Positions 420 through 54,600 of a stretch of DNA of 64,000 bases are shown piece after piece. A model generated the notes under the pieces. It was not told the origin of the DNA. It made no database searches and was given only the letters and a program-made list of their open reading frames with translations. Numbering within the stretch: the first letter of the stretch is position 1; every line of letters starts with the position of its first letter. Both the position numbers and the translations under genes were made by a program. Source of the stretch: Bilabrum cf. latius (lineage: Eukaryota); NCBI GenBank assembly GCA_965178125.1, contig OZ237763.1, positions 124,001-188,000 on the forward strand. Reading direction: 5' to 3'.

Positions 420-1950
420 TCATTCGTGCTTGCCTGCCCCCGCTCGGCGGTACGACTCCCCAGGGGTGAACGCCTCGATCCCAGTGATGCCCCGGCCCAG
501 GATGAGCGCGTGCACATCCGCCGTCCCCTCGTAGGTCACCACGGCCTCCAGCCCCACCGCGTGCCGGATCACGCCGTACTCGTCACTCACCCCGTTCCCG
601 CCCAGCATGTCACGGGCCTCCCTCGCGATGGCAAGGGCCTACACCGTGTTGTTCCTCTTCACCAGGCTGATCATCTCAGGGGGGCAACCCTCGGGCACAC
701 CGTTGGCCAGCCCTTGTTCCTTGACCCGGGCCACCTGCACGGCCCCCAGTAGACCGAGGGAGATGTCCGTGGCCATGTCTGCCAGCTTCTTCTGCACCAT
801 CTGGTTGGAGGCCAGCGGGGCACCGAACTGCTGCCGGTCCAGGGTGTACTGCCTTGCGGTGTCGTAGCAGTACTCGGCGGCGCCCATGGCACCAAAGGCG
901 ATCCCCAGCCGGGCCGAGTTGAGGCAGGAGAAGGGGGCCTTGAGCCCCTCCGCGAGGGGCAGTTGGTTGGCCTGGGGCACCCTGCAGTCGTCCAGGAAAA
1001 TCATGCCGGTGGGAGAGGCGCGCAGGGCCACCTTGCCCTCGATCTTCGGAGTGTCGAACCCGGGAGTCCCCCGCTCCACGATGAACCCCCTGACTTTCCC
1101 GTCGGCCGTGTCCCGCGCCCAGATGATCGCGATGTCCGCGATGGGGCTCGAGGTGATCCAGTTCTTGGCCCCGGTCAGTGACCAGCTGCCGTCCGGCTGC
1201 TTGGTGGCTCTGGTCTCCATGCCCGCGGGGTCTGAGCCGTGGTTGGGCTCGGTGAGGCCGAAGCAGCCTACAAGCTCGCCCGAGGCGAGGCGGGGCAAGT
1301 ACTGCGAGGGAGAGGTGATGACGTGTGATGTGGGGCGTGCGTTGGGAGGTGGGGGTGCGATCAGCGAGCGTTTCGGGCAATGACCTGCCGTGAGAGACTA
1401 GCAACTAATCATTGTAATTGTTCTAGTCGAGCCTTTGCCATGGTGCGAGCCACAGTGTGAGGCCACGCAGGCGACTTCACCTGGGCAGCTGGCCGCCAAG
1501 AAAACGCCTCACCTTCTCCTTTTGCTCATCAGATCCAAACTTGTAGATGGGGTGCATCACCAAAGATGATTGCACGCTCATGGCGGATCGGTACGCACTG
1601 TCCACGCGCTCAACTTCTCGGGCAATGAGGCCGTATGCCACGGTGCTCACGCCGGAACAGCCGTAGCCTTCGATCGTGGGGCCAAGGAGGCCCAGTTCCC
1701 CCATCTCGCGGAATATCTCGCGGTCAAACGTCTCATTTCGGAAATTATCGGTCACTCTCGGCATCAACTTTGCCTGAGCATATGAGCGGGCGCTATCCAT
1801 CACTAGTTTCTCTTCTTCTGTGAGCAACGATGCCATGCCAAGCGGGTCAGACGGGTCAAATCGAGCTAGAGATGCCATCGATCGACGGCCAACATGTTTT
1901 AATGCCCGACGAGAGGCATAGCCAAGCTTTTCCCCGATCGTTCGCAGCAT
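420..1950 (-). CDS. GCDH: Glutaryl-CoA dehydrogenase, mitochondrial; 2 exons (1950-1513, 1301-420); 1 in-frame TAG (639-641)
   Basis: Motifs [66 protein letters not shown]...[20 protein letters not shown]. Intron GTGAG...CGCAG, phase 0. Ends TGA. Confidence 0.95.
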
Positions 1951-5100: not shown

Positions 5101-6197
5101 GGGGGCCCGGGGGTGCCGCGCCTGGGTTCGGCGGGAAGGGGGGGGGTGCAGGAGGCCCCGGCGGCCAGGAGACGGACGAGTTCACGGACCAGGAGATCGA
5201 GGACGCGTTTCACTTCATCGACCTGGACAGGAACCTCTACATCGGGGCGGCCGAGGTGCGTCACGTGCTCGTGTGCATGGGCGAGATCATCACGGACCAG
5301 GAGGTGGACGAGATGATCCGGATGATCGACCAGGACGGGGACGGGCAGGTCTCCTTCGACGAGTTCTACCGGCTGGCCAAGCACCCCGACCCGGCCAGCC
5401 CGGAGTTTCAGCTCCGAGTCGCGGCGGGGGGCGGGGACGGCGGGGTCGGGCCACCGGCGGGCAGCGGGAGCCGGCGGGGCAGCGCCAGCGGCGGTGGTTC
5501 CCAGGCCCTTGTTCCCCGGGACAGGCAGGGCCGACTCCTCCCCGGACCACCCCCGGGGGGTGCCCCCGTGGCGGGCAAAGCGGCCCAGAAGGCGAGAGAG
5601 GCCCGGCTGCGTGAGGCCAAGGCAAGGTACCTGTAGGGCTTCGCCGAGGACAACCACCTGCGGATGGCCGACCTGCAGAGGGCCTACAGGCGCTTCAGGG
5701 CAGAGCAGGGCGGGGGAGGTGGGAAAGGTGGAACTGGGGGGCTCGAGGTGGGGTTCGACGGCATGTGCGGGATGTTCGACGCCGAGCCCACGGGTGAGGC
5801 GCGGCAGCTGTACAACGCCTTTGTGGATCCGGGCAGCGGGCGCGTGCCCGTGAAGCGCCTTCTCCTCGCGCTGAACAATTTCACGGGGACGGACAAGGCC
5901 CAGCGCGTTAGCTTTTGCTTCTGGCTGTTCGACGAGGACCGGAGCGGCTCTTTGGAGGAAGGGGAGCTCCTTGATATTCTGGTTGCCAACCACATGGCCA
6001 GCGGGCCGGAGGCGGTCCGCTCCAAGGCGCAGGTCATCATGAGACAGGCGGACAAGGACGGGAGCGGGACCATCGACCTGGACGAGTTCATCGTGGTCAG
6101 CCAGAAGTTTCCCAATTTGCTGTTTCCCATGCACGCGCAGGCAGGTGGAAATGGAAATGGGACTAGTGTCGGTGGTGCCGCGTCGGGTTTCGGATGA
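2148..6197 (+). CDS. Pro-rich N-terminus + three C2 domains + two EF-hand clusters (Ca2+/lipid-binding protein); exons 2148-2154 and 2308-6197; TAG at 2718, 3276, 5634
   Basis: ATGTCAG|gtgagt...ttgcag|GCCGA gives [12 protein letters not shown]. ORFs 2217, 2865, 3333 and 5664 share one frame, joined by TAGs. C2 motifs ([30 protein letters not shown]); EF loops [48 protein letters not shown]. Ends TGA. Confidence 0.85.
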
Positions 6198-9600: not shown

Positions 9601-10927
9601 CAGGGAGCTGAGCCCCACGGGGACAGGGGGGGGCACTCCCACTGGCGGCATGAGGGGTGTGGGGAGGAGGAGCTTCGGCCTAGGTCGAAGTAGGGGCGGA
9701 GGCAGGAACAGCCGGTTCGCAGGCAGGGACGGCGGGCCGAGGGTGAATGACGGTTCGGCCGCTGGTACCGCCGCCGCCGCAGGACTCACACGAGTCACGG
9801 CAGAGCTGGACGCGCGGCCGGACGAGCCGAGGACGACCCGCCGGGCCAGGCGGCAGGCTCGCAGGGAACAGAGGAGGATGGCCCACTAGAGGAAGAGGCA
9901 GAGGCAGAGAGAGCGCGGGGTCGTTGTTCCCCTGCGGTCCCCCTGGCGTGTGGAAGGCGCCCTCGCCCTGAAAATCGCGGACTTTGGGCTGTCCCAGACC
10001 ATCGGCCCCAACGAGCGGCTGGTCAAGAGGGCGGGGTCCTGGGCCTACATGCCATGCGAGGCGGTGTAGGGACAGAGGAAGGGATACACGTGCAAGTTCG
10101 ACGTGTTCTCCTTCGGGGTCTGCCTGTACGTGGCCTGCGCGGCGGCGCACCCGTTCGACCCTGACGGCAACCTGCCCGTTGAAGAGATAAAGAGGAGGGC
10201 GAGACACGCCGAGTGGGGCTTCCAGGACCCCAGCTGGCCGTACCGCTCGGCGGAGCTGAAGGATTTCCTCAGGAGACTCATTACAAAGGACCCCAGGGAC
10301 AGGATGACGAGTGCCCAGGCCTTGATGCACCCGTGGGTGCTCGGTACCAAGCTCGGGGCTCCCGCCATCGTCAGGCCCGCCCTGCGGCTGAACCCGACCC
10401 ACAGCCGCTCCCAGGTCGACGAGCGAGGGAACACCGATTCCTCCGCTGATAGCACCATCAGCTCCACCCAGAGGTCCTCAGTTGGTATGACGAGTGCAGC
10501 GACGAGCACTACCGGCGCGGGCACTGACTCAGTGGTGCCGTGCATGATCCCGGGCCCTTCCAACGCTGCCAGGCAGCAGGTCATTTACCAGCAGCAGCAG
10601 CAGCAGCAGCAGCATTTGTTCCAACACCCGCAGGCCCAGATGCTGCTGGGGGGGCCCTCCCCGAGCGAGCCCGGCAGCGATCGTCACACTGCGGCCATGG
10701 CCGTGGCGGAGGTGATGCAGGGCATGTCGGGTGCGGGGGCTGGTGTGACGAGTGCGCGCGGGGGGCAGGACGCCCCGGGACCGGCAGCTGCAGGTCCCGG
10801 CGGAGTGATTGGGGGTCATCATTCCCCTGCTACCCCAAGTGGGGACATTGGGGCCCAGGGGGGAAGCGAGCACCCCGCAATGGGGTCATCGGCTCGTAGG
10901 GGGCTAAGCGCCACTCGGGTCGACTGA
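6605..10927 (+). CDS. CAMK-like Ser/Thr protein kinase, about 1440 aa, N-terminal MGCGAS acylation motif, large insertion within the kinase domain; 11 in-frame TAG
   Basis: One continuous frame (ORFs 6605, 7019, 7889, 9371, 10103) broken only by TAG at 6794, 6800, 6806, 6998, 7781, 7808, 7859, 7862, 9296, 9887, 10067. Motifs GRGSFG, AIK, GGELF, HRDLKPEN (8681), KIADFG (9971-9988), DVFSFG. Ends TGA. Confidence 0.85.
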
Positions 10928-22341: not shown

Positions 22342-23451
22342 TCACGTGCCCACAAGGTCCACGGCCGCTGGCACATCTTCGCTGCCTCCACCTCGTCTCA
22401 ACGAACTACCGCCACCACCACTAGACGAGAGTGGTAACGATGATGATGACTTGGTCTCGTCAAGGGCCCCCTCACTCATCACACCGCTCGCACGTTCCAA
22501 GCCCGGGTGCTCCTCTGCCCCTCGCCTCGCATGGGACATCGCCGCCGCGAATTCCCTCGGATAGTGTCCCGCCGCCGCCCAGGGCGCCCCCACCAAGTCC
22601 ATGTCCACTCGCCCGGCACCAGCGGCACCAGCGCCACCAGCGGCACCAGCAGCCCATGTTCCATGCTGCAGCAAACCGGAAGCACCACCCGAGGCACTTC
22701 CCCCAGACCCGGCCGCCTGCCTCCACCCCTCCACCTGCAGCAGCGCCTTGTTCCCTGACCCCTCGGCCTCCTCTCGCCTCGCTTTGGCGCGCGCCTCAGT
22801 CACGTCCCCCATCACCTTGAACCCCACCTCCCTCAGCTCGCCGTACAGCACGGGCGGGCCCCCGGGGTCTGCCACGCTGCCGTAGCCGGGATACCAGTGC
22901 GCCGGGTGGTTGTAACCTCCATGAATCCAAGGGCTTGGGTAGTACCCGTTCGACCCCATGGCGCCGGGTGGCCCCCAAGGGACGCAGTGGGCGTGCCATG
23001 CCTAGAGCTGGACTGGCGATAGAACCTCCGGGTTCCAGCAGCAAGGGCACTTGCTGTCCATAATCGCGGCCACGCTAGGAACGATGGGAGTTGGCACCAT
23101 GGCCGGGCCATAAAAATGTCCCGGGTGTGGCAGTGTGCCCGGGATACGACCCGCGAACGGCGGTGCTCCATAGTCAGCGGTAGCTGGCTTCCAGTTGCGT
23201 CCCTAAAGCTCCGGCAAATTCGCTGCCTCCAAATATTCCGACGGCAATGGTAGGAAGAAAGGAGGTACAGGCTTGTCGTCTTCCTTATTCGTGTCTTTGG
23301 TGTGCTGCACACCTTGAAATCGATGTGAACTGCTTGCTGCAAGAGGGACGTTTACCATTGGGTCCATGCTAGCATGCTTTCGCCCAGATTTCGGTCTCAT
23401 CGCAAGACTACTATGCATTATACTAAAAGCCATGATAAAAGCGGCAATCAT
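22342..23451 (-). CDS. Hypothetical, probably secreted Pro/Gly-rich protein; TAG at 23203 and 23002
   Basis: ORFs 23203-23475 and 22342-22959 are in frame and joined across two TAGs. Hydrophobic N-terminus MIAAFIMAFSIMHSSLA. Ends TGA. Confidence 0.55.
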
Positions 23452-23589
23452 AGCGCAAAAATGGGGTGCAATCACCCGATTTTCGAATAGCCAGCGTCGG
23501 CAGCCGCTCGCTCGTCATACCCCATAGCGAGGTTGCAACCGGAAGATGCCCGTTGTGGCGAGCAGAAATCTTGCCCTGCTGCTACAAGC

Positions 23590-24525
23590 ATGGCATCTTC
23601 TGGCGCCGGCGGGCTTTTAGGCCCCAAGGCAGATCCGCCACCGTCGCTGATGGGCTTCGACGACGCCCTCCCCATGGAGCCGAACGCAGCAACGGCCCCG
23701 CCTCCCGCAAAGGTGCGAACAGGCAAGGAAGCACAGGTGGATGAGATCTTGAATTCTATTTTGCCACCCAGGTGAGTTGGTTTGTCTATCCAGAATACGA
23801 TCGGCCCGTGGTAGCTGGCGCTAGCTTTTGGAACCGGGCAGAACGCTAGCAATGTAGTCGACAACGGATAAGGCGATTGAAATCTCCTGCAGCCACGTAC
23901 CTTGTGACAATCTATGCCTCTTAAACAAGTAAGTCTTATCTCCGTTTCCTTTGTTTCTTCAAGCCGTCGCAGGATGTGGGAGCAAACCGACGGTTCGGCT
24001 TGGGTGCAGTACGTTTCGAAGGCCCCCGCCGAGCGCGTGGACGTCGACACGCTCGAGGCTGCTTTGGAGCAGAGGCTGATGGAGAGATAGGCGCGAGAAG
24101 GTGGCATTTGCTCCGTGCGAGAAGACCTGTTCCGGCAAGCCTTCGACGAGCTGATTCGGCAGGTGACGCTCAACAGCCCGGAGCGGGGCCTGCTCCTCAT
24201 GCGGGTGAGGGACGAGAGGAGGATGGCGCTCGACGCCTACAAGGCCCTGTTCGAGAGCTCGATCGTGTTCGGGGTGCGCAAGCAGCTTCAAAGCGAGGAG
24301 GGTATGGACAGGATGTCGCTGACGGTGAGGGAGCTGGAGGAGGACAAGAGGCGCCTCGAGGCCAGGGTGCTCCGGCTGAGGCACCAGAAGGACGCGATGG
24401 ACAAGAGGAGGAGGGAGAGGAGGGCACTGGATGCGTCGGCCAGGAAGGAGGAAGTTGACCTGCTGAGGCACGAGAACTAGCAGCTGGAGCAGTTCCTCAG
24501 GTCGCTGCCGGGTGGCAACAAGTGA
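23590..24525 (+). CDS. DNALI1: Axonemal inner-arm dynein light chain p28; exons 23590-23771 and 23973-24525; TAG at 24088 and 24478
   Basis: ILNSILPPR|MW...WVQYVSKAPAERVDV...RLMER*AREGGICSVREDLFRQAFDELIRQVTLNSPERGLLLMRVRDE...LLRHEN*QLEQFL. Ends TGA. Confidence 0.93.
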
Positions 24526-32094: not shown

Positions 32095-34508
32095 TTACCT
32101 AGACCCAGCGCCAGCCCCTTTGCCAACGCCCGCACCCGCACCCGCACCCGCACCCGCGCTCTCCTCCCCTCCTTGCCCCTCCCCCCCCTGTGGCCCTTCG
32201 TCCCCGTACACCTTCATGTCCGTGATGCCCAGGTCATCGTCCTCCTGCTGCGTCCTGTCATACCTCACCTGCACCAGCCGAGGATCCGCCCACCCGGGTC
32301 CCTCCTCCCCGTGCCCCTCCATCTCCATGTCCTTGCCCCCCTTCGGCGCTCCACTCGCCGGACCCTCCTCCCCACTGGCGCGAGCCGCGGCGATCCGCCG
32401 AGCCGCCGCCTCTTCCTAATAGGGCGAGTGCACCCACGAGTTGGCCATGGGGTCGATCACGCGCAGCTCGAAGGGCTCCTTGCCCTGGGCGAGGCCCTTC
32501 AGGCGACCCAGGAACCGCATCAGGTTGCTGCTCTTGGCGCGGTCAGCGGAATCGAAGCTGGCAGACTGGAAGGGGTTGCTGCTGTCGAGCTGCTCTGCGA
32601 TCTTCTCTAGCAACCCCTCCACGGTGGTGTACAGCCCGCCCAAAGTGCCGTGCTGCATCACGAGCCCAACGTCTGGCACCTCCACCAGCGCGGTGTCGCT
32701 CTTGATGACGTCCCTGCCCAGGTCAAGCTTGACGGCCTCGCCCACACTCATGGGCGTGCCGTCGGGGGCCAGTGGGGATCCAACCCGGGAGTCCAGGAGC
32801 TCAGCCAGACCCGCTACCGCGTCCGCTGCGGAACCGGCCGCCATGGCTGCCGCGGCGCCGAGCGGAGCCTCCGCCCCCGCGCCCCCCGAGGCCGCCTTGG
32901 CTGCCTCCTCCCGCGCCTTGGCCGCCGCCTCCGTCACCGCCCTGGCCCTGCGGACAGCCTCCTCCCCGCCCACGTACAGCACCTGCCTCGTGCCCTAGGC
33001 AGGGATGGCCCCGCCTCCCTTCACCTCCACCTCCCGGAACCCGCACTCGTCACACAGCATGGCCATGAGGATGACCTCCTTGAAGTGCGGCACGTCGGTC
33101 ACGCACATCTTGACGCGCACGTCCACGCCGCAGCTGGGGCAGGCGGACGGAAACGCCATGAGCTCCTTGGCCTCGGTCGTGCGGGAGCTGTCGAACACGA
33201 GGGCCTCCCAGCCGCTACCCTTGTTCCCTGAGGCCGTGGCGCGCGCGCGGTCCGTCTCCCCCCGGATGTTTCCTCCCGTCTTGTACCCCGACCCGGAGCC
33301 GCCCTCCCCGGTTGTAACCGCCTAGCTCCCCCGCATCAGCCGGGTGTCCCCCTCGATGTCGTCCTCGCCGCCATCGCCATCGCCCTCTCCCTCCCCGTGT
33401 TCCCCCGCGCCCCCGGCCCCGCCCGATGGTCTCTCCTGCGCCGCGCCTCCCTCCGGATTCAGCCCCGCACGCAGCATTTGTTCCCTGGACCTCCGATAGA
33501 AGGCCGCCTTGAGCCCCGGGTCGGGCGCGGGTGCCCCCGGGTTCTCCACGAAGCTGTTCCCCGTGATGTCGTCCAGCTGCAGCTTGGTGGGGAGGGCCCC
33601 TTCCTCGGCGGTGGCGATGGCCCTGAGGCGGTCGATCATCGACCCCACGGTGTCTGCGAGCGCAGGGTCCATGGCCCGGCGGACCGGCTGCTGTTCCTCG
33701 AGAGTCGAGGCGGCCGTGGTCAGGAGCCCCTCCACGGTGGTGAAGACGCCCTTCTGGGTGTTGGCTGGGATCTCGAAGGAGAGGGAGGGGATGGTGACCA
33801 CTGCCTTGTCGCCCTTGATAATCTGGCGGTCCAGGTCCTGCGGAGAGCGGCGGGCGGGATCGATGGAAAAGCGTGGAATGGAAGATAGCACGAAGTGCAG
33901 CGGCGCTCGGAAACAATCAAAAACCGGCGGCTTGGTTTCTCTTGGGTTGCTCAAGAGGGGCGGGATAGTTCCGCGCCTACCCTCCCATGATAGCTTGAAC
34001 GAATTCGCGCAGCTTTGTGGTGCTTGGATGCTGGTAAGCGACACGGCATAGGAGAGCAGCGCGAACAACCGTCGCGATGCAAATATTCTTGCCTTACATC
34101 CTTCGTGCGAATGGTCAGCTCGTACCGACACCCTTTCTCTTGGACTTCAGCGCTTTGAACCTCAGACGATCTGAATCCACACTCCTCGCACTTGAATGCC
34201 ATGAGAATTACGTCGCGAAAAAATGGAATCCGAGTGGGCATCACGCTTGTGATCCCATCGTCGCCACATTGCTGGCACAAAGACTTAAGCCGCATCACTC
34301 CATCCTCATTCGGATCGAATTCGAGTACGCCAGGCGAAGCTCCGGCACCCTCAGGTGCCTCCTCGTTACTGCCGGCAGCTGCAGATGAAGGGGCCGTGGA
34401 GTCGCCAGCGGACCCGGCAGAAGCACCGGCCTCAGATGACACTCGCGATGTTGCCAATTCTCCAATATCTCTAAACACTTCTTCCTGCCCATCGCCACTA
34501 GAAGCCAT
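32095..34508 (-). CDS. ZPR1: Zinc finger protein ZPR1; exons 34508-34098 and 33837-32095; TAG at 33322, 32995, 32416
   Basis: Two C4 zinc fingers (CQQC..IPFFRDVILMAFKCEECG; CPSC..VPHFKEVILMAMLCDECG), each with an A/B domain (TTVEGLL). The conserved C-terminal DPRLVQVRYDRTQQEDDDLGITDMK lies after the third TAG. First non-TAG stop is TAA at 32095-32097. Confidence 0.93.
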
Positions 34509-40352: not shown

Positions 40353-43300
40353 TTGGTTGACCGGACAGCACAGATCGTCCTGAAAGTCAGCAGGGGCCCC
40401 AGCGGTGCATCTGCTGAGGGGCACGGAGGACGAGAGGCTGACACGGTAGATCACCCACAGCACTACATTGAAGCTCTTGATTTCCTGTCGCAGACACACT
40501 GGTACTGGACACTCGCTAATTTAGATCTATCCAGATTGCGGGGCTTCGCTGGCGAAGGTTCCCTGCACCAGTCTCGACAAAACTCCCTTGTCTGCAAGTT
40601 TGAGATTGAAAATCGAATTTCGTGTTTAGTTGCTACTCATTCCCTTATTACTAGAATGCATAGCCACAAGACCGCGTCACGGTTGCAGGTGTAGCGCACT
40701 GAGAGCCGCCACGAGTTTCTAGACCGTGACTTGCCCCGAACTTGGGCTGATGTGCTGTCCCCGGGGAAGACACCCATTATAGAGGCTACAAATGGCGACA
40801 CGCGGCTGCATGCACTCGTATCATACGCGTATGTCAGCGACGAAGCTGTCGCCGAAGCAGCAGCATCCTCGGCAAGCACAATCAACGCTCAGAACAGCCG
40901 TGGCTGGACCGCCCTGCATAGCGCCTCGGCCAGCTGTTACTACGAAGGAGTGCGTTGTCTGATACAAGCTGGTGCTGACATGCTCGCCAAGACGGGTGAC
41001 GAATCGAAGCAAACACCAGCACATTTGGCAGTACGGAGCGGAGCCGGCAGCCCCGACATTCTTCAGCTACTGCTCAGCCACGGGGACACCGCCGGTGCTG
41101 CCCAAGCAATTAAAGCCTCGATTGTACATGATTCACACATATCTGACAGCCCGTTGGCAACAGAACCAGACGCCCGAGGGGCCAGCCCACTCCTGCTCGC
41201 AGCCAGCCGGTGCCAGCTTCCGGGCCAGGACGGAGATGACGCGGTGAGCTGTCTACGAATCCTCCTCCGATCCGTCGAAGGGATGCTGGATTTAATTGAG
41301 ATTGATTCGAATGAGGGAGTTCAAATGGTACTGCAAGCTCTCGTGGGTGCTGCATGGCACCATGGGAAGGACTCGGCTGGTGGCCTCGCTGACACTCAGC
41401 CGTCGGGGCGAGATGGCACTGCCAGTGGCAGTGCGAGTGCGGTGGGGTCTGCCTCTGGCGGTGGTGCGTGCGTGATGAGTGCACTGCATCTTGTGGCACT
41501 AGCCGGCAGAACAGACGCGGTGGAATCAATTCTAGGTGCCATGGACAGAGTGGTCCTCGCGGGCCGCGGCGATACGAAGGCAAGGGCGCGAATTGCGGCC
41601 GGCGTCCTGGGGCTGAAAGGTGCATTACACGGTGGGGCCAGCCCCATCGAGCTAGCGCAGGGCATGAACAAGACCCACGGCGCGTCTCGTGTCGACAGCA
41701 CCGATGGCGATGGCGCTTCATCCCCATCCTCGGCTGCAGGGGCAGGGGATCTGCTGCGGAGGTGGTCGCAGCGGTGGCGGCACTTGGCACGGGCGGACTC
41801 AGGGGCACAGCACGACGTCGCACTCGCAGCGTAGCCCACGGCTAGTGGGGCAGCCAGCGTCAATGAGTCGACCACTCTCGCCTTGGCCCTTGCTAGGTGC
41901 ACCGCACTGCAGCGCCAACTGGACGACGCAGAGCGACGCGCGGCAGCCGCCGAGGCGCGAGCTGCTGAAGCCGAGGCCCGATTGCAGCGGGTGCAGGCCG
42001 TGACCGGCACTGCTGCACACAGCTCGATAGTAGCACAGCACGATTCCTCTGCGAGTCCGCCTGGGCAGGATTCCAGCGCATTGCATTCGGCTCTGCTTCC
42101 CTCCCAGCCAGCGGTGCCGATGCTGTCAGCGGAGGAGGAGCCGAGCCCGAGAATGTGGGTGCGTTGCCTCGCCCCTGTGTCTGCAGACAGCATCGACACT
42201 CGTGCTGCTTCTGGTGGAGAGCATGCCCCTGGTGAATAGACCCACCCGTATTTCTGGTGTCCTGAGACGAACGAATCCTCATGGGAGCCCCCCGTCGGTG
42301 CAGCTGTTGTGGGGTAGCACGAGTGGGCCTTGATGGAGCAGCAGGGCGAAGATGAAGAGGAACACTAGAAGGACCTGGTTGGCAAGTATGCATCTGTAGA
42401 CGGGAAGGGCAGAGTAGAGAGCCGTGGGGAGCTCACAGCCTCCCATCCTTCAAGGGGGCGGGCGAGGCACCAATAGGAACAACAACTAGAGCCTGGACAT
42501 GCTGCCACCGCCGAGAGCAAACCCCAATTCGAACCCTTGATTGCAAACGATGCCGTCAGAGGTGGCATCTCGGCAGCAGAGACACCTGCAGCTCCAGCCC
42601 CAGGCCCTCTGGCCCCGAAGGAGACCCCGGTAGGGATGCCCAAGCGGCACGCCGAGATCTGGAGCAGATTTTTCCAGAATGCCCTGTCGGGTGCCACGGC
42701 CGGCGGGCTAGCCTCACAACGAGGGTCACGCAGCGGTGCCCGTAGTGCAGCTGTAGTGGTGGAGCAGGCTGCCGCAGAGGCGAGGCGAGCTCTCTCCGCT
42801 GGGGATACGCAAGCTCTGCGGCGGGTCTTTGCCGAGGGCCACCTGCCAGCAGCCAGCAGCGTCACGGCCAAGCCAGGCAATGGCTCTGCTGCTGGTGCCA
42901 GTTCACGAGGGGGCGCCAAGCGTTAGGCGACGCTGCTGCATGCCGCTGCGTGGAAGGGCAGCCTGCACTGCCTTGCGGTGCTACTGGAGGACCTAACTGG
43001 TGAGCTTGACCTGGACACACGGGATGCCAAGGGCAACTCGCCGCTCATCGTCGCGTGTGCCGGTGCGGCGCGGTTTGGGACTGGCAGCAGCAGCAGCAGC
43101 AGCATGCCTGGAAAGCCAGAGTCGAGCGGCACCGGCGGTGAGACACCCACAGAGAGGTAGCACCTGGAGTGCGTCAGGCTGCTGCTGCAAACCGCTGCAG
43201 ATCCACTGCACACGAACTCAGTTGGAGACACGGCGCTGCACGTGGCTGCGGCTGGTGGCGCGGTCGAGGCGTGTCACCTTCTGCTAGAATACGGCGGGGA

Positions 43301-44708
43301 GCAGGCCCGCCTCGCCCGGGGGGAGCTTGGCGATACGCCCAGGGAGCGAGCGCTGGCGTGGATCCCAAGCATGGCGCCCCACACCGCTGAGAGATGCGCC
43401 GCGGCGGCTCGCCTCATCCAGCGCTGGCAGCCTCTTGTGAGACCGAAGCAGCGGAGCACTGCTCACTCTTCCTCCCCTGCTGCTGATACAAATGGTAGGC
43501 CTCGGGCCGCAGCGGGAGGAACGCGTGGTCCCACGGCAAAGGCGGCAGTACCGCCGCAGAGCACCTCCCTGCGAGGGGTAAGAGCACCTGCTGGTGAGGT
43601 GCAACCCCCAAGCCTGCCCAGTCCGTCACATCGCCAGGGTAGGGAATCGAAGCGACGGGGCCAGGGGCAAGGGCAGAGGGGTGCAGGCGACGGCCAGGCT
43701 CTCGACACCCCGGCGCGGGGGCGCGGCGCATCCGCTTCGGACTGGAGCGGCTCCCCTGCACCTCCCAACGGTGACGTCCGGGATCGGATCAGCTCAGACT
43801 CTGATGACGCCTCAGACACCGCAATGCAGCCAAGCGTCATGGGCAGCAGGCGGCCACCCCATCTGTCGCAGTTGGGAGGTAATCCGGCTGAGCTACACAC
43901 GCAGCAGGCCCTGCAGCCGCTGATAAATCCGCAGAACCAGCAAGCATCCGAGGTAGCCGCTTTGAGTCAGTCCACTACAGCCGGTACCGCTGCACGCCAG
44001 CGGGAGCCGCAGAGTACCGGCACCATCAAGGCCTTGGAGGGAGAACCAGCTCCGGAGGCCTCCGTTCCCTAGGCGGCCGGGTTCACAGCGCCGAGGATCC
44101 ACACGGCACGTGACTTGGCGCAAGGCGACGCGCCAGGTGAACAAGACGGCACCGGCCCACCCACGGCCTCTTCGATCTCGCCAGGGGACGTGCTGGGTGA
44201 CACTGTGGGTGGTGTAGAGCCAGGATCAATCCTGTTCCCCACAGGAGATGGCACGAATGCGAATGCGGGTGTGCAATTTGGCGGGTCTCAATCAGGGATG
44301 CTAGCTCGAGATTTGCTGCCGATCGGAGCAACTCAAGCGGAAGCGCGAAGGGCCGGCGAACAGCACGGTGGCGGGTTGTTCGCTGGGGGGGATAAGCTGG
44401 CATTCGGCTCTCCGGCTGAGAGTTTGCGATTCGCTGGCGGCAACGGGGCCGCAGTACCGACGGAGGCACTCGAGACGCCTGCTCGAGGTCTGCGTGCCAG
44501 CGATAGACCTGCAGGATCGCCCACTGGTCTCGGGGCTGCTTCAGGTGGAAAGCGAAGCGGAGGGCCGTTCAAGTCGCCAGCAAGAATGAGTCCGACAGGG
44601 GGCCGAGCCACACAGGTGGACATGTTTGCTATGTAGTCTCCCCAGCGGGAACATGTGGCTGGGTACGGAAAAGGGGGGACCAGCCTGGAGCTTAGCCACA
44701 AGCCCTGA
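40353..44708 (+). CDS. Ankyrin-repeat / coiled-coil / WW-like protein; 10 in-frame TAG; 5' structure (possibly from about 39500) unresolved
   Basis: ORFs 40353, 40731, 41883, 42537, 42978, 43242 and 44115 share one frame, joined by TAGs (40692, 41832, 42237, 42315, 42366, 42474, 42924, 43158, 44070, 44634). Ankyrin motifs GWTALHSA, QTPAHLA, TLLHAAAWKG, GNSPLIVA, GDTALHVAA; WW-like PYFWCPETNESSWEPP. Ends TGA. Confidence 0.7.
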
Positions 44709-45645: not shown

Positions 45646-48600
45646 TCAGTCACCACTGCCAGCAGAACCGCTGGAGAGGCGCGACCTCGAGTTGCGGCGC
45701 ATGCCCTTGAGCCCCTTGAGAGACGAGGGGCGGGCAGCGGCAGCGGCGGCCATCAGAGAGGCGCTCTCGGATCCAGCGGGGGCACCTGACCCGCCCGTGC
45801 CCGTGCCCGTGGCTGTCGTTGGATTGAAAACGCTCTTCCGCTGGCGGGAACCACGGGCGGCCTGGCGCGCTCTGCCGGCCCCGCTTCCGCCGGATGCCAC
45901 GGATGAGGCACGCATTGCGCCGGCACCCACAGTCTCAGCACCGGCGGCGTCCTTCTTCAGACCCGAGTTTTCGGCGCGCAGCTGCTCCACATGCTGCAGG
46001 AGATCGCCGTACGCGTTCCTGAACAGCTGCCAGGACGCCTGGTCGGGGGCCTGTTCCAGCCCGAGGATGCCCTCCGCCGTGGCGTCCAGCTGGGCGTTGG
46101 ACATGGCCTTCTTGGAGTCGGCGCCACCCGGGCGCTTCATCATCATCGGGTTGTTCTCAGTGGTGATCTTGTCGGTGCCGCCTGCCTCAGGGTCCGTTGC
46201 GGCAATCTGCGCGCGAGAATCCCCCCTGCCGCCGCCCTTGGTCTTGCCGACTGCCAGCTTCTTCTGCTTGTCGTCGTCGGCAGAGTTCTTGCACATCTCC
46301 ACAATGTCCAGGATTATGACGGTGCCGAAGTAGAGGAGCGTGCTCACCACGATGAGGATCACCAGGATGGTCAGCGTGTCGCGCTGGCTCTGGTAGAAGT
46401 CGCTGTCCAGACGGCCCGACTCAAACATGATGCCGGCCAGCACCACCATGATGGCGCTGAACAGCAGCACGGCCTCCACCGTGTTGTAGTCGAACAGGGC
46501 AGACCCGAACACCACGGAAGACAGACTCACGAACAGTGCGCGTGCGTTCGTCACATCCAGACCCTTGCTGAACGTGGCCCGCTTGCGACCCCGAGACTCG
46601 ATGCGCTGGATGTCGGTCCAGATCTGGTGGTGCAGTGAGGACGGATCCACGCGGCGGGTGATGTGGTCACGCACCACGGCGTCGCGGTCGCCAGGAGACA
46701 TGTACGGGTTGTTGTGCACGTGAGCCGAGTACGACAGGAACAGCACCAGCAGAGCCATGGACAGCTGGAACGCGGCGTTCTGCACGAACATGAGAGCCGT
46801 CAGGGCGAGGCCCAGCTTGCGGGCCAGGATCACCAGCACCCACGCGACGTAGTTGGGCGTGAACTGCATGTACAGCCTTGAGTACCTCTTGCGCATGAGC
46901 AAAGAGCCCTCAGTGGCGCTCGACTTGGTGTCACCGGTGCCCTTGGCACGCAGCAGCTGATCCGCCACGATGTCCTTGCGGTACATGAACAGGATGTACG
47001 TGGCCCAGGCGGGGAAGCCGATCACGTACACGGCCAGGGTCAGGATCGTGAACGGAAGCAGCGTGCGGTAGACGCCGCCCGGCTTGTTGCACGGCTCGAA
47101 CACGGCCTGGAAGTAGCGGATCACGTTCCCGTCCTCGTCGTACTCTGGCGGGTCAGTGGGCGTGCAGTTGAGAGCGTCGGCAGTGAGGCGCGCCAGGTTG
47201 AGATACAGCACGTAGAACATCACGCAGACCGCCTTGATGAGCATGTCCAGGTGGTCGGCAGAGTTCTTGAAGCCGTGACCCTTCACGCACCACGTGTACA
47301 GGAAGTAGACCACGAAGAACACGCCGAACAGCACCATCACAGCAGCAGGCACCAGCATGAGGAAGGCCCACTTGGTGATGTACCCCAGGTCAGGCACGAT
47401 GCACTCGGGGGCAGTGATCTCGAGGTTGAGGTTGAAGGCAGACAGCACGTGAAGCATCTCCCGGATCATGGGGGGCCATGACACGCGCGCCGATGCGAAG
47501 ATGGCCAGTGACTGCAGGTAGTCGATACCCGACGCAGCCAGCGCTACGTTGATGTCACGCTTGTTGATCCAGTACGCACCGAACGCACCTGCGATCACCA
47601 GAATCGCGAATGCGGCCATGAGGATCCACGGGTTGTCCGGGCACTCAACACACTGGCCCGCCTGCCTGTAGTAGCCGTCTGCGCAACTGCCGCATCGGAA
47701 CGACGGTGCTTCGGACTTGTAGGCAGCAGCGCACTGGTTGTCACCGATGCACGCGAAGTCAGGCTCGCACTTGACGATGCACACGTCACGGCCAGGCACT
47801 CGGTTGGATGCAGGGCACGCATCGGCCATGCCACTCGTGACAGAATCGGAAGAGTTGAGGTTGTACCACCCGGCCTGCGGCACAGGCATGGTGTGCACCC
47901 GCCTCGAGTCGTCGTAGCCCTGGCAGTCGGCACCCAGCGGGCACGGCACGCAATGCTCGCCTTCCACGCCGAATGCGCCATCATCACACGCGAAGAACAC
48001 GCCATCGAGCGGAGGTGCAGCCGGCACGAAGCCACTCTGCCCCGCTACCTGCAGCGACACGTTCTTGAAGCCCACGGTCATGTGAGGCACCGTGCAGTCG
48101 ATCTGCCGGGTGGTCTCTCCCAGCGGGTCCCCACTGCGGGGGAAAGCCCCAGGCACGCGAGAGACCTACACGCACTGGACACCGGCCACGGCGCCCACAA
48201 CCAGCCGCTCCTGCGCGGTCCATCCCTGCCTGTCAGCCAGCTCGGGGTCACCGTAGTTGTACCCATACAGGGCCACGGTGCGCCTAGGGGCGGATTCGGG
48301 CAGCCAGTAGGTGGCGTTTGTAGCTGCCTGCTGGCTCCGCCTCTCCTCCATGCTAGAGCCCCAGTTGTGGAGCAGGTCGGTCAGTGGCCGCTGCGTCTGC
48401 TCGTTGATGATGATTGCATTGCCGATCACGCCCTCGCCGTCAGCTGCGGCTGATAGATCGCGCGCATCCCGGAGCGCATTCCAGTAGTTGCCGAGCTCGC
48501 CAGGAGGAGACATGCGCAGCTGCTGGGGCACGACCCGGTCGATCCGCGGCGGGCGGTAGGCGAAGCGAAGCGTGTTGGACTCGGCATGCAGACCGCCCAC

Positions 48601-51600
48601 ATCGGGGAATGTCGTGGCACCGCCCTCTCCGCCCTCGACCACGCGGCCCTCGCTCAGGGCAGCGTCCTCCAGCACCACAGACACGGGCCGGTTGACGCCG
48701 ATGCCGCCAGGGGCACGCAGCACGATTTCGTTCTCGGTGCGCTGCTCGATCGTGTATTGGCAAGCCGTCTCGTACACGCCCAGGGGCCTGCCGCCCACCA
48801 GGGTTCGAGCGTCCGAGAGGCATGACCGGAAGAAGGTCACGCGCAGGTAGGCCGTCGGGACCGAGGCCGCCTCATCGATGGAGATGCCGGGGCTGAAGTA
48901 GCCCAGAGAGAGCTGCTGGGAGGTGCGGGTGGTGTTCCTGGGGGTGGGGCCGAAGAGGTGGCCCCGGATGGTCACCTCAAAGCCGCCCTCGGTGCCGCCT
49001 GTCTGCGGGGCCAGCGACTCGAGGATGGGTGCAGCGTACCGCAGACGGGGATGGTTGTCGGCGTCAATGTCGATGTTCAGCAAGCGCCCGCCAACAGAGA
49101 GCTCAATGTCTCTCTGCAGCACGGCCGGCGGCACTTGGAACGTGATGGCCTCGTGCTCGTGCACGAACACCATGTGCTGCGCCACCTCGCCCTCGCCCTG
49201 GAACGACTCGAGGCCGTCACAGCGCAGCTCCTGCGCACGACGCCGGTAGGTCCAAGCAGTGAACACGCACAGCTCGTATGTCTGGCTGGAACCACCGGAT
49301 GGGAGCAGCCCACGGCGCCCGAAGTTCCTGCCCAGGATCGTCACGTTGTACCCACCCCCTGACGGCAGGTTGGCCAGCACGATGCCCCCGGTGGACGTCA
49401 CCTCCACAACGGGCCCGCCCACCATCATCGCACCGGTGTCAACCAGCGGCGACGGCAAAGCTGCAATGGGCATCGCATCGCGCTGCAACACACCGGTGGG
49501 ATCTAGCTGATTAAGTACTTCCGGGTTGCTGAAGGCGGGGTCCATGACAGGATCCACACCATGCAGAGCCAGTCCAGTGACCTCGGGTCCGTCGTACGAC
49601 AAGGCCGCAGCCATGGGATCACCTACCTGTCCGGCCACCGTCACGCGCACAGGCAGGTTCTCGCCGAAGCCCTCAGGCAGCGTGCAGCGCACCTGGTCCT
49701 GACTCAGACGCGTGGCTCCGGAGCACTCCACGTAGGCGTACTGCGCCCCCTGCAGCCTGCGAGAGCTGGAGGACAGCCCCGTGGGCAGGCCGATCTCGAC
49801 CTTGACCAGAGGCTCGGCAGTGGATCCGTTTACAGAAGACGGCACCTCACGACCAGGGATAGTGGTGCCGAAGTTGGTTCCAGACACGGTCAGCGTGGAG
49901 CCGCCCTTGGTAGGCACGGTGCCGGAGGGCTGCGCCGACACGCCCAGCACCTCGGGGGACTGGTACCTCAGAGGCACGTCCCGGCTGACCAGCTGCGCGT
50001 TGCCGCGCATGGCAGTCACGAGCGCGTTTGTGTCCCTCGAGTTCTCCAGCGCGTTGGCCTGGGAGGCAGCCTGCTGGTCCAGGCTGGTGATCGTGGTGCC
50101 GAGGGCCTGTGCCACGTCAGCGGCTCGCTGCGCCAGGTGAAGCGACTGGTCGCCCACCATCACACGGAGGGAGTAGGGCTGGGCATCGCCGTAGTAGAGA
50201 CCATCGCCCTCGCCCATGGGCACGGCCGTGATGAAGCAGTCATGCAGCGAGTCCTGCAGCCCATTGGAGTCCGACTCGAGCACGCCCTAGGGGGCGCAAT
50301 TGTGCCTCGCACTCGCGTCGATCACGCTGCCCGATGGGTGGCCATACGTTAGAATTCCGTCTGCGCCGCACGTGTACCCGCCGATCAGGCCGCCGTCCTG
50401 TGCCTCAGCTGCCTCGACATACGCGCACTCTCCCAAGTTGGCGCCACGCACGCGGACGTACCCTCCCAGCGTGGGGATCTCGAGCCAGCGGCCCTCGGAG
50501 GCCTGGTCTGCGCCAGTCACCACCGTGCGCCAGTTGGACGCATCTCGACGAGCGTTGTAGTTGGTGATCTGTGCAGGGTCAGCCGCCCACACGTCCACCA
50601 TCACAGCGACAGGCGGGGCATACGAGTACTTGGAATCACCAGCGGAGAAAGTCCCGTCCCTGTCGATCCAGATGGACTGGTCGCTGCCCTCCCCAGGAGG
50701 CGCCAGGAAGCTCACCACGTAGGCCTCCCCGGGACCAACACCGGTCTGCGAGTCAACAACACGCTGCTTGATCGTCGCTGGGCTCTCACTTGCAGACATC
50801 CACACGCTGTTGACGGGGTCCCACACACGGCAAGGCGTGGCCTCAGCCGCGGTGGCACCCTTCGCCAGCACCCTCAGGTTGGTGACGAACTGCAGCCCAC
50901 TCACCCGCATGGTGATGCCGTTCTGGCCAGGGCCCATAGAGTTGTCCACTGGGTGCCCACGGGTAGGCACGTTGTCGATGTTGCCCTCCAGCCCAGACAC
51001 GTAGGGGGCCAGGTCAAGGTACTCGATGTTGTCTGTCTGCACCGACTGCCCCGAGGGCCACGCCTGTGACTCGATGGACAGGATCACGCGGGCCGACTGC
51101 TCGCTCGTGTACATCAGCAGCCTGTCGTGGTGCCAGTCTCGCATGTACACGGGCTTGCCTAGCAGAGCTGGCTCCAAAGCCACAGACAAACGCACAAACC
51201 GACCAGAGCTCACCGCTCGGTTGGCCTGTGGGTGTCCCAGGTTGGTGCCGAACACCTTCACCTGTACCACGTCCTGCTGGTCGCACGTGAACGGGTCACC
51301 GGCGCTGAAGGGGCAGATGCGCTCCTGCTCCGAGTCGACCTCGCCAGTGCTTGAGGAGTTCACACTGGGCGCCACGTAGCCTGGCTCCAGCCACGCAGGC
51401 CTGGTCACCACAGCCCGGTCCAGGGTAGGGTCCTAGTAAGAGAAGATCGAGTTGAGCGTGATTTCGGACAGCGAGTCGGGGTTGATGGTGGCGCTGGCCT
51501 GCGTGTCGGACTGCCCCGTCTCGGACTGCGACACGGGGGCGAGGCCCACCTGCACTGGGATGGCGCGGCCGGCTCCATGCACGGGCAAGGGGAAGCGCAC

Positions 51601-54600
51601 GCGCTGCTGCCTCGAGTTGCCGCTGTCGATCTCCACGGAGGACGGCGCGATGCGGTCCGAGCCGAAGTTCACCATCACGCGATTGAGCGGGTCTGCCAGA
51701 GGCACGTTCCTGGTCAGCAGCTCGATCTGCGTGGGGTTGTCTATTGGCGAGTAGGTGTCGGCCGTGGCAGGCGTGACCTGAAGCACCTCAGCCGATGCGA
51801 AATCAAAGAAGGCGTCGTCCTCGGTTGGTTGAGGAGAGGCCTGGTCTGCCACCATGATGCGGAACCAGTGCCTCTTGCCAGAGGCAGGGGGCAGCGTCAC
51901 CTGAAGATGCGTGTGGTTCACGTGCGTGAAGAGAGTCCGGCGCACCTCGTACTGGCCACCTTGCTGGCCAAACGTCACACCCTGCAGCAGAGTCAGCGAG
52001 TTTTCGCCGAACGTCAGCTCCGGGGGCCCAAACTGCTCACCCACAATCCACAGCCGCTCGCCACCGTTCGGGTCTGCATCGACCACCGGAGACCACTCCT
52101 CGCCAACCCTCCACACTGCGTGCACCTCCGGCATGGCGTAGGCAGTCGTGGGGTTTGTGGACCGCTGTCCGTCCAGCAGGATGCTCCAGCGGAGGGCGCG
52201 ACCCGCACCAGGGGCGGTGTCGCACATTATGGCCTCGTGCGCAGTCACCAGCCTGCACCCGCTGGCCTCGAAGGTGACCTCGTCCTCGGGTCCGTTGTCC
52301 AGAGACACAGTGTACTCCACCAGTATGCGAGAGGCAAACACAGACTCAGGCACGGTCGGCCCAAAGTTGCGGCCGTAGACCGTCACCGGCTCCCCACCCG
52401 GGGTGTCGGCATCAGCAGCACCGGGGCCCTCGAATCGAGAGATCGTGGGTGCAGCGTATGAAGCATTGCTCTCATGCAAGTTGGAACCGAGGTTGGCCAT
52501 GACCACGCGGAACTCGAGCATGGTGCCAGTGCCCGGCACCATCACGCACTGCATCCTCGAGTCACTGTCCACGCGGCAATCCGATGCCACATACCGCAGA
52601 GACGAGTTGGGTGGGCCATACCTCACCTCAGTGATGGAGCCCAGAGTGGCCAAGAAGGCGGGCCCGAAGCCAGACCCCTCCAGCTGCACCTGCCGCCCGC
52701 CACGGGTGTCCACATCCTCGCCGTTCCGCACGGCGGTCAGCATGGGCGGGGCGTACGACATGAGGCGGTTGTCAGCCGGGATCTGAGACACGCCTTCCGG
52801 TCCCTGGTAGTCAGTCACATCGTTGCTGCGAACACCGTCCACCTCCACGATGATCTCGTGGCCCGCACCCACGCCAGGTGCCACTTCGCAGTCGATCACG
52901 GTGTGAGCCTGCTGGGACGTGGCGAACGGCTTGGAGCAGGACTCCATTGTGTGCTCGTACTCATCCATCCCATCCGTGGTGGTGCCCAGCGAGGGAGACA
53001 CCGATGACAGCCGGTACATGACGGTGACAGCAGCCGAGGCGGGGCCCAGGTTGGCTCCAGTGATGCGCACGGTCTGTCCTCCTGCTCCAGACAGCATGTC
53101 CTTGTTGACGCCCTGCAGTCCCTGCACGCTCGTGACGTACGGGGTATCATAACTGAAGGGCTGTGAGCTCACTTGGTCAGCAGGCTGCTGGGATGCTATG
53201 ACGGGCTCTGGAGGCGTGTCGCCCACGAACGGTCCCGACAGCGAGGAGTAGCCCATCTCGCCGTTGATCACCAGCGCCCAGTGCAGGTTGGCGCCAGAGC
53301 CCTCCACGCTCGCGCAAGTGAAGTTGTGCTGCGGCTCGGCACCTGCAGGGAGCGTGGTCGTCTGGCACTCGAACCGGGCCTGTCCATCGGCCGACCCAGA
53401 CGGCCGCTGGTAGAACAGCCTGCGCTTGCCCACGGGCCCTAGGTTAGTGCCAGAGATACTGATCACAGTTCCACCATCAGTGGCCAGCTGGAATGCGCTG
53501 GGGTATACCATGGAGATTTCAGGGTCGGCGTAATCGAATGACTGCGAAGTGGCGATAATGGCCACATCGGAGTCCACGATGGCGAAGGGGGCAAATCCGC
53601 GACCGTATCCCATGCCGTCACCTGGGGTGGTGCATGTGAAGTACTCATCGGGCATGTGACCGGGCCTGCAGTTCTACATCTCCACCTTCTGCTCCATGCC
53701 AGTGGCTGGGTCAGTGCGGTTGAAGTGCACCCTGTACGTGGAGCTCACGCTGCCGAGGTACTGGCCCGTGAAGTTGCAGTCCACGGCCTGGGTGGCGATC
53801 ACGGGCAGCTGCTCGCAAGTGAACGAGTCGATGATGGGTGTGTCGGTCAGGTTGGCCCTCACCACCAGAGCTACTGGCTTAGTGTCCGTCAGGTTGCCGT
53901 CCGTCACGGACAGGTGAGCGTGATACACAGCTCGCACCAGGGCTCCTCCCGGCACCACGTCGGACAGGAAGGGCCTGAACTCGCCCGAGTTGCTCCAGTC
54001 CCGAGGCGTGGGCTTGTTCTCCACCGTGATCTTGCCCGTGGCCGAGTCGATCGCGAACAGGTTCAAGGAGCCGTCCGTCAGCGGCCCGGCCGTCATGCCG
54101 GTGGCTGTCGTGATGTTGCCAGAGGTGGCCAGGCTGTACGTGAGAGCCACCCGCCACATGCCGTTGTCCTCGTCCTGCACCTCGGGGTCGGGAGAGAAGG
54201 TGTTGAACTGGGTGCCTGCACCCGTACGCAGCACAGCACCGAACTCGTCCACGATGAGAACCTGGTCCATTGCGATCACGGGGGCATCGTTCACATCCCG
54301 CACCTCCACACGGAGCAGCTCCTCCACACGGTTGTCCGCGATGTCCCTGATCTCAATGATAGCCAGGAACTCGGGGGCGCTCAGCCCGCCGTCCTTGGCC
54401 TCGAAGTTGAAGGGCATGTCGTTGCTGTCCAGCTTCATGTACATCTGGCCAGCTGCCGTGATGCCTAGCCGCTGGGACTCGTCGAATGCGATGCGGAAGG
54501 TCAGGGGGTCGTTCTCGGGGTCAGTGGCGATGGTGGCCAGCGACACACCCACGGAGCTGCCGTTGCCCAGGTTCTCGTCGGTGAAGATGCGCGACCCTGG

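What the first reader, a model, noticed from the sequence alone, without database searches (positions are those of the whole stretch)
24088..24480. UAG most likely encodes glutamine
Seen: p28/DNALI1 reads RLMER*AREGGIC and RHEN*QLEQFL. From memory of the family, the consensus is LQQRQARETGIC and RTNQQLKAQL, so both TAGs fall on conserved Gln. Context agrees: CAG CAG TAG TAT CCC CAG (28296-28313, QQ*YPQ), GQGQS*G (7808), RHQ*EQQL (42474), and a TAG at the probable first mature residue after a signal peptide (AVA|*SPSQQ, 60395). Caveat: the TAG in GCDH (639) and one in the giant paralogue (60422) align with Lys in homologues, but these look like polar, more tolerant sites.
Basis: partly seen in the sequence, partly recalled or inferred. 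Interest (0 to 1): 0.8.

Follow-up and report, generated by a model that had tools for sequence, protein, structure and literature searches.

The report
UAG read as glutamine here
In this GC-rich protist genome the usual stop codon TAG sits inside many working genes and is almost certainly read as glutamine, a known kind of genetic-code change possibly in a lineage where it has not been reported.

Summary
TAG is a sense codon: 26 in-frame TAG against 0 TAA and 0 TGA in 11,337 codons of homology- or transcript-supported coding sequence. A 4589-codon frame opens only if TAG is read through. Spliced transcript contigs keep the TAGs unchanged.

Glutamine is the best reading. Among 120 p28 homologues the two TAG columns hold Q in 113 and 77. 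Three close relatives have CAG or Q where this genome has TAG, amid almost purely synonymous divergence. Three ORF ends in relatives fall just before CAG-Gln codons here or Q in their own kin.

Against it: the GCDH column favours Lys (K 64, Q 4 of 150). A paralogue has Lys at one site. A fast-evolving neighbour gene shows TAG against TGG twice. Gln is not enriched beside TAG.

TAA is probably still a stop, which resembles NCBI table 15. The tRNA and eRF1 could not be tested.

The parts
23590..24525 (+). p28/DNALI1 gene model: exon 1 23590-23771, intron 23772-23972 (GT..AG), exon 2 23973-24525, stop TGA; 244 codons with 2 TAG
   Evidence: Pfam PF10211 at E = 3e-59. PDB matches. Exon model. Transcript contig X5 record 1 lies on 23970-24623 with 0 differences, and the rest of that record lies elsewhere.
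24088..24090 (+). In-frame TAG, p28 site 1
   Evidence: The column holds Q in 113 and K in 7 of 120 homologues. The relative L001 has CAG here. P0002 and P0288 read Q.
24478..24480 (+). In-frame TAG, p28 site 2
   Evidence: The column holds Q 77, A 12, K 8, E 6, D 5, R 3 and others, of 120. The relative in run X9 reads C for T at 24478, giving CAG. P0289 reads Q. L001 keeps TAG.
639..641 (-). In-frame TAG in glutaryl-CoA dehydrogenase (exon frame 423-1295)
   Evidence: PDB GCDH match at E = 4e-107, with K at this place in the human and Burkholderia chains. The column over 150 representatives holds K 64, gap 19, M 14, A 8 ... Q 4.
40701..44708 (+). Ankyrin/WW protein gene with 9 in-frame TAG (41832, 42237, 42315, 42366, 42474, 42924, 43158, 44070, 44634), stop TGA
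   Evidence: Pfam Ank families. One unspliced transcript contig, X5 record 7, covers 40607-43899 with 0 differences. P0287 (86% identical) reads Q at 42924, and its ORF ends just before 43158.
45646..59415 (-). Giant 4589-codon gene (Kelch, F5/8 type C, cadherin, IPT/TIG, C-terminal membrane part) with 6 in-frame TAG (56893, 56503, 53674, 51433, 50287, 48166), stop TGA
   Evidence: The ORFs of relatives end before this gene's TAG at 53674 (P0128), before CAG-Gln codons 559 and 3730 here, and before a Q of their own kin that is also CAG-Gln 3631 here.
60290..63998 (+). Head-to-head paralogue of the giant gene (runs off the window). It shares two TAGs (63147, 63537) and has further TAGs at 60395 and 60422 in its N-terminal exon. 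The start at 60290 is approximate.
   Evidence: The TAG at 60422 aligns with K of the giant gene.
32098..34146 (-). ZPR1 gene with 3 in-frame TAG (33322, 32995, 32416). Its frame ends in TAA at 32095-32097.
   Evidence: Pfam jr-ZPR1 and Zn_ribbon_ZPR1. PDB 2qkd. Intron 33837-34096 is removed in transcript contigs. TAA end.
22345..23514 (-). Neighbour gene of no known family with 2 in-frame TAG (23203-23205 and about 23005)
   Evidence: It is conserved in L001. The TAG at 23203 aligns with TGG in L001, and a TAG of L001 aligns with a TGG here. No Pfam match.
5634..5636 (+). In-frame TAG in the C2/EF-hand protein gene (frame 2112-6197)
10067..10069 (+). In-frame TAG in the C-lobe of a CaMK-like protein kinase (frame 6563-10927); another at 9887
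   Evidence: It aligns with A or R in the PDB CaMK chains shown, a variable place.

Best explanation
This is nuclear DNA of a GC-rich flagellate protist, probably a stramenopile. In it UAG is an ordinary but rare sense codon for glutamine, at about 5% of Gln codons. UGA ends genes, and UAA has probably stayed a stop, so the code matches NCBI table 15. Shown here: TAG lies in frame in most genes of the window. It is kept in spliced transcripts. It is shared with, or exchanged for CAG in, related organisms. It sits in columns where homologues have Gln. Inferred, not shown: a tRNA-Gln with anticodon CUA reads it, and the release factor eRF1 no longer recognises UAG.
For: 1) TAG is a sense codon. 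There are 26 in-frame TAG, 0 TAA and 0 TGA in 11,337 supported codons, and 8 of 12 genes hold at least one TAG. The longest frame is 4589 aa with TAG read through, against 942 aa without.

2) The TAGs are not in introns and are not edited. Contigs of runs X5 and X7 lack introns with GT..AG ends (38643-38812, 33837-34096, 34664-35054), so they come from spliced RNA. They cover the p28 exon and 40607-43899 with 0 differences.

3) Deep alignment columns. p28 site 1 holds Q 113 and K 7 of 120. Site 2 holds Q 77, A 12, K 8 and E 6 of 120. The Pfam PF10211 score is best with Q (204.5 bits), then K 202.4, S 202.0, R 201.5, E 201.3, A 201.2, Y 199.6, W 199.3 and L 198.0.

4) Close relatives. In L001, 100 of 184 p28 codons differ: 86 synonymous, 13 not, and 1 is TAG to CAG at 24088. 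L001 keeps TAG at 24478 and ends in TGA. In the X9 relative, of 25 listed changed codons 23 are synonymous, 1 is D to E and 1 is TAG to CAG at 24478. P0289 reads Q there. P0287 reads Q at TAG 42924.

5) The reverse direction. ORFs of relatives stop just before CAG-Gln codons 559 and 3730 here. P0312 stops just before a Q of its own kin, which is also CAG-Gln 3631 here. Gln makes up about 4% of that protein.

6) UAA. Given the per-gene CAA:CAG ratios, about 6.9 in-frame TAA would be expected if TAA were used as CAA is (my arithmetic). None is seen. The ankyrin gene alone has TAG 9 and TAA 0 with CAA 21 and CAG 40.
Against: The GCDH TAG column favours Lys: K 64, Q 4 of 150 rows, 19 of them gaps. 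Human and Burkholderia GCDH have K there.

The paralogue's TAG at 60422 aligns with K in the giant gene.

In the fast-evolving neighbour gene, the TAG at 23203 aligns with TGG (Trp) in L001, a TAG of L001 aligns with a TGG here, and the TAG near 23005 aligns with CTG or nothing clear.

The ORFs of the P0122 family (3 members) end before a Val codon here.

Q is not enriched beside TAG: 7 seen, 7.0 expected.

The ACAD and ZPR1 Pfam scores do not discriminate between residues. The ZPR1, kinase and giant-gene sites fall in variable columns.

The ORF-end evidence is indirect, because the relatives' DNA was not seen. Only 40 of 1,239 differences between the laid contigs and the window were shown.

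No tRNA gene is in the window or in L001, and no whole genome is held. The decoding machinery is therefore untested.
Confidence: 0.88

Rival explanations
1. UAG encodes lysine.
For: The GCDH column holds K 64 against Q 4 of 150. Human and Burkholderia GCDH have K there. The paralogue site 60422 aligns with K. p28 site 2 is K in Chlamydomonas and in the three next-closest relatives P0003-P0005. TAG and AAG differ by one base.
Against: p28 site 1 holds K in only 7 of 120 and site 2 in 8 of 120. By my arithmetic the product of the three column frequencies favours Q over K about 10 to 1. Relatives have CAG or Q, never AAG or K, at the three TAG sites they span in conserved genes. The Pfam score for p28 is 2.1 bits lower with K.
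Confidence: 0.04
2. UAG encodes tryptophan, or is read ambiguously as Gln and a second residue.
For: There are two TAG against TGG correspondences, one in each direction, between the window and L001 in the neighbour gene 22345-23514.
Against: W occurs in 0 of 120 rows at both p28 columns and in 0 of 150 at the GCDH column. W gives one of the lowest p28 Pfam scores, 199.3 against 204.5 for Q. The neighbour gene evolves fast, with many replacements around both sites. If UAG is Gln, TGG to TAG is a single transition that is merely missense.
Confidence: 0.03
3. UAG encodes another residue known from other reassignments: Glu, Leu, Ser or Tyr.
For: All four are one base from TAG. Passages of PMC11687900 report UAG as Leu, Ser and Glu in other eukaryotes.
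Against: At p28 site 1 these four residues are absent: 0 of 120. At site 2 there are E 6 and S 2 of 120. Their p28 Pfam scores are below Q: S 202.0, E 201.3, Y 199.6, L 198.0. Relatives show CAG or Q.
Confidence: 0.03
4. UAG is still a stop, and the TAGs reflect pseudogenes, unrecognised introns, RNA editing, assembly error or low-level readthrough.
For: None was found. Nobody has shown the proteins.
Against: In-frame TGA and TAA are both 0 in the same 11,337 codons. Divergence from relatives is overwhelmingly synonymous: 86 of 100 and 23 of 25 changed codons. TAGs are conserved in relatives, as in L001 at 24478 and in the ORF ends of P0128, P0002 and P0287. Spliced transcript contigs from two runs of two studies carry the TAGs unchanged. 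Nine TAGs in one gene would make readthrough product negligible.
Confidence: 0.01

Closest known systems
NCBI table 15 type code (UAG = Gln; UAA and UGA stops). Passages of PMC11687900 report it for Iotanema spirale, Protocruzia tuzeti and some phyllopharyngean ciliates.
   Same: UAG alone is a sense codon and matches Gln. UGA ends genes. No in-frame UAA was found. The tool's table 15 reads both p28 TAGs as Q.
   Different: The nearest organism-named p28 homologues are stramenopiles, 13 of 15 named hits, not ciliates or fornicates. My searches found no nuclear UAG reassignment described for that group. UAA as a stop rests on absence and on one candidate terminator. The tRNA and eRF1 have not been seen.
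NCBI table 6 type code (UAA and UAG = Gln). The same passages report it for many ciliates, some Ulvophyceae, Hexamita, Streblomastix and Amoeboaphelidium.
   Same: UAG is Gln and UGA is the working stop.
   Different: There are 0 in-frame TAA in 11,337 codons, where about 6.9 would be expected if TAA were used as CAA is (my arithmetic).
UAG-only reassignments to other residues: Leu in an uncultured rhizarian and some ciliates, Ser in Scotinosphaera, Glu in a ciliate (passages of PMC11687900).
   Same: The meanings of UAG and UAA are uncoupled.
   Different: The residue here is Gln, by alignment columns and by relatives.

Membership tests
UAG = Gln nuclear code with UAA and UGA as stops (NCBI table 15 type) | UAG occurs in frame within conserved, expressed genes | tested here: met
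   26 TAG in 11,337 supported codons, in 8 of 12 genes. The TAGs are kept in spliced transcript contigs.
UAG = Gln nuclear code with UAA and UGA as stops (NCBI table 15 type) | UAG positions correspond to Gln in homologues | tested here: met
   The p28 columns hold Q in 113 and 77 of 120. Relatives have CAG or Q at 3 TAG sites. Exceptions: the GCDH column has K 64 and Q 4 of 150, one paralogue site has K, and two sites pair TAG with TGG.
UAG = Gln nuclear code with UAA and UGA as stops (NCBI table 15 type) | UGA terminates genes | tested here: met
   There are 0 in-frame TGA, against 423 in the off-frames. The long frames of p28, TM9SF, NDUFV2, PABP, GCDH, the giant gene and others end in TGA (12 of 13). 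The p28 of L001 also ends in TGA.
UAG = Gln nuclear code with UAA and UGA as stops (NCBI table 15 type) | UAA remains a stop | tested here: inconclusive
   There are 0 in-frame TAA, against about 6.9 expected if TAA were used like CAA. The only candidate TAA terminator is in ZPR1 at 32095-32097. It overlaps an AG|GTAA that could be a splice donor, and the next TGA lies 24 codons further on.
UAG = Gln nuclear code with UAA and UGA as stops (NCBI table 15 type) | A tRNA-Gln with anticodon CUA | not testable with these tools
   No tRNA gene is in the window or in L001, and no whole genome is held.
UAG = Gln nuclear code with UAA and UGA as stops (NCBI table 15 type) | eRF1 altered so that UAG is not recognised | not testable with these tools
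   eRF1 is not in the window, and no genome is held.
UAR = Gln nuclear code (NCBI table 6 type) | UAA occurs in frame as a sense codon | tested here: not met
   There are 0 of 11,337 codons. The ankyrin gene has TAG 9 and TAA 0 although CAA 21 and CAG 40. The sample is one window, so this is not final.

The most novel reading that the evidence does not exclude
This is an independent, so far undescribed origin of a UAG-only to Gln nuclear code, with UAA kept as a stop, in a GC-rich flagellate lineage that is probably stramenopile. At least three related environmental lineages share it and still exchange TAG and CAG freely.
Probability: 0.45. Interest if true: 0.7.

Novelty: new member of a known kind. 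Interest (0 to 1): 0.62.

Why it matters
Nuclear code changes are rare outside ciliates. Cases where UAG and UAA have different meanings are rarer still (passages of PMC11687900; the title and start of the abstract of PMC5304391). A further lineage, apparently in a supergroup branch with no reported nuclear reassignment, would add an independent data point on how UAG is captured while UAA stays a stop.

There is also a practical side. Any annotation of this genome and its relatives with the standard code truncates most genes. Proteins called on relatives' contigs already break at TAG: P0002, P0128, P0287 and P0312.

Tried and rejected
- Whole genome: none is held, so no genome-wide tRNA, eRF1 or codon tally was possible.
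- tRNA scans of the window and L001 found none. An Rfam scan of the window found none.
- Earlier findings of this scan: nothing.
- Pfam score by residue for the ACAD C-terminal domain ranged from W 73.0 to Q and E 70.2. For ZPR1 it ranged from A 96.2 and Q 95.7 to W 93.9. Both columns are uninformative.
- PDB alignments gave variable columns for ZPR1 (L or Q; A) and for the kinase (A or R).
- Homologues of the giant gene at 30-37% identity align its TAGs with D, P, R or gaps, in variable columns.
- Scans of genome contigs and viral contigs with the giant protein found no relative.
- The Atlas look-up of TM9SF gave no useful taxonomy.
- No listed run is on record as RNA. X5 and X7 were judged RNA-derived only from their spliced joints.
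- The count '12 of 13 long frames end in TGA' is weak for frames whose true end is unknown, because TGA is the commonest stop triplet in this GC-rich DNA.

Full report
**What is in the window.** The window is 63% G+C eukaryotic nuclear DNA with spliceosomal introns. Pfam and PDB matches identify these genes:
- glutaryl-CoA dehydrogenase (GCDH)
- a C2/EF-hand protein
- a CaMK-like kinase
- NDUFV2
- a DUF2961 protein
- TM9SF
- p28/DNALI1
- a NUFIP1-like protein
- a PLD-like protein
- ZPR1
- PABP
- an ankyrin/WW protein
- a 4589-codon Kelch/discoidin/cadherin/TIG membrane protein, together with the start of a head-to-head paralogue of it

No whole genome is held. No tRNA or Rfam family is in the window.

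**The observation.** The last exon of p28 (23973-24525) has TAG at 24088-24090 and 24478-24480 and ends in TGA.

**Is TAG a sense codon?** Several lines say yes.
- Reading TAG through raises the longest frame from 942 to 4589 aa. Reading TAA through does not (946 aa).
- In 13 supported coding segments (11,337 codons) there are 26 TAG, 0 TAA and 0 TGA in frame. The off-frames of the same DNA hold 73, 36 and 423 in 22,648 codons.
- 8 of 12 genes carry TAG. PABP, TM9SF, NDUFV2 and DUF2961 carry none.
- Contigs of runs X5 and X7 skip 38643-38812, 33837-34096 and 34664-35054 with GT..AG ends, so they derive from spliced RNA. They lie on the p28 exon and on 40607-43899 (seven TAGs) with 0 differences. 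The TAGs are therefore neither intronic nor edited.
- Relatives share TAGs. L001 keeps TAG at 24478. The called ORFs of P0002/P0288, P0128 and P0287 end exactly before TAGs of this genome.

**Which residue? Deep alignment columns.** Among 120 p28 homologues, site 1 holds Q 113 and K 7. Site 2 holds Q 77, A 12, K 8, E 6, D 5, R 3, H 2, T 2, S 2, V 1, M 1 and 1 gap. Scoring the exon against Pfam PF10211 with TAG set to each of nine residues puts Q first: 204.5 bits, against K 202.4 and L last at 198.0.

The GCDH site argues the other way. Over 150 representatives the column holds K 64, gap 19, M 14, A 8, V 6, E 6, S 6, T 5, R 5, Q 4 and others. Multiplying the three column frequencies still favours Q over K about 10 to 1 (my arithmetic). 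Sites in ZPR1, the kinase, the broad ACAD model and the giant gene fall in variable columns and say nothing.

**Which residue? Close relatives.** This is the stronger evidence.
- L001 is a metagenome contig whose p28 exon is 79% identical in DNA and 92% in protein. It differs in 100 of 184 codons: 86 synonymous, 13 not, and one is TAG to CAG at 24088.
- A second relative, in run X9, differs at 31 bases in 563. Of the 25 changed codons that were listed, 23 are synonymous, one is D to E and one is TAG to CAG at 24478. The protein P0289 was called on a contig of the same length as that X9 record (1671 bases) and reads Q there.
- P0287 is 86% identical to the ankyrin protein and reads Q at TAG 42924.
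- In the other direction, ORFs of relatives of the giant gene stop just before this genome's CAG-Gln codons 559 (P0123) and 3730 (P0124 and three cluster members). P0312 stops before a residue that is Q in its own cluster mates and CAG-Gln 3631 here. I could not see those relatives' DNA, so this last line is indirect.

**Evidence against, in full.**
- The GCDH column favours K, as above.
- The paralogue's TAG at 60422 faces K of the giant gene.
- In the neighbour gene 22345-23514, which has many replacements, the TAG at 23203 faces TGG in L001. A TAG of L001 faces TGG here. The TAG near 23005 faces CTG in a poorly aligned stretch.
- The P0122 family's ORFs end before a Val codon here.
- Q is not enriched near TAG: 7 seen against 7.0 expected.

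If UAG is Gln, then TGG to TAG and AAG to TAG are single-base missense steps. These cases therefore fit the Gln reading, but they do not support it.

**UAA.** No in-frame TAA occurs. If TAA were used relative to TAG as CAA is to CAG in each gene, about 6.9 would be expected. The ankyrin gene alone has CAA 21, CAG 40, TAG 9 and TAA 0. The only candidate TAA terminator, in ZPR1, is ambiguous. UAA is probably still a stop, so the code resembles NCBI table 15 rather than table 6.

**Mechanism.** The sense reading and the Gln identity are shown as far as sequence comparison can show them. A tRNA-Gln(CUA) and an eRF1 blind to UAG are inferred from how such codes work elsewhere. That inference is my own knowledge and was not tested here.

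**Organism and novelty.** Of 15 organism-named p28 hits, 13 are stramenopiles (Bicosoecida sp., Triparma, Tribonema, Hondaea, Phaeothamnion and oomycetes), one is Chromera and one is Diacronema. Named GCDH hits include a diatom and a fungus. The placement is tentative.

Five full-text searches found no nuclear UAG reassignment in stramenopiles. A sixth, for an accession prefix, found nothing. Of PMC11687900 I read passages listing the known cases. Of PMC12152300 I read one passage of the reference list. Of PMC5304391 I saw only the listing and the start of the abstract. Supplements were not consulted. The runs that hold this DNA date from 2024-2025, so a description may exist outside the library.

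**Verdict.** This is a new member of a known kind of variant code.

Noticed in passing
window 22345-23514 (-) and L001 1-1000 (-): A conserved gene of no known family shows TAG facing TGG (Trp) twice, once in each direction, between this genome and the relative L001. This is an unusual Gln/Trp exchange that a UAG = Gln code makes a single-base step.
   Followed up: partly
window 45646-59415 (-) and 60290-63998 (+): Two giant paralogous genes lie head to head. They are nearly identical over more than 1100 codons, share two TAG codons, and have diverged N-terminal signal-peptide exons.
   Followed up: partly
window 35018-37642, 20148-22082, 16218-17078: PABP, TM9SF and NDUFV2 have no TAG and a GC3 of 0.83-0.93. 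The ankyrin/WW gene (40701-44708) has a GC3 of 0.63, many CAA codons and 9 TAG. TAG seems to be avoided in genes with strong codon bias.
   Followed up: no
window 32095-32097 (-): The ZPR1 frame ends in TAA, the only long frame in the window that does. The triplet overlaps AG|GTAA, a possible splice donor, and the next TGA is 24 codons on.
   Followed up: partly
window 12000-16200: This stretch has lower G+C (0.57). It has long frames without Pfam matches, several with in-frame TAG, and coding scores near zero or negative on the giant-gene codon model.
   Followed up: no
window 38248-39145: A small membrane-protein gene on the minus strand has a 170-base intron (38643-38812) that is removed in contigs of runs X5 and X7. 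No Pfam family matched.
   Followed up: no
window 6794-6806 and 7859-7864: Clusters of TAG (three within five codons, and two adjacent) lie in the low-complexity N-terminal part of the kinase frame, where the coding score is weak. I could not tell whether they are coding.
   Followed up: no
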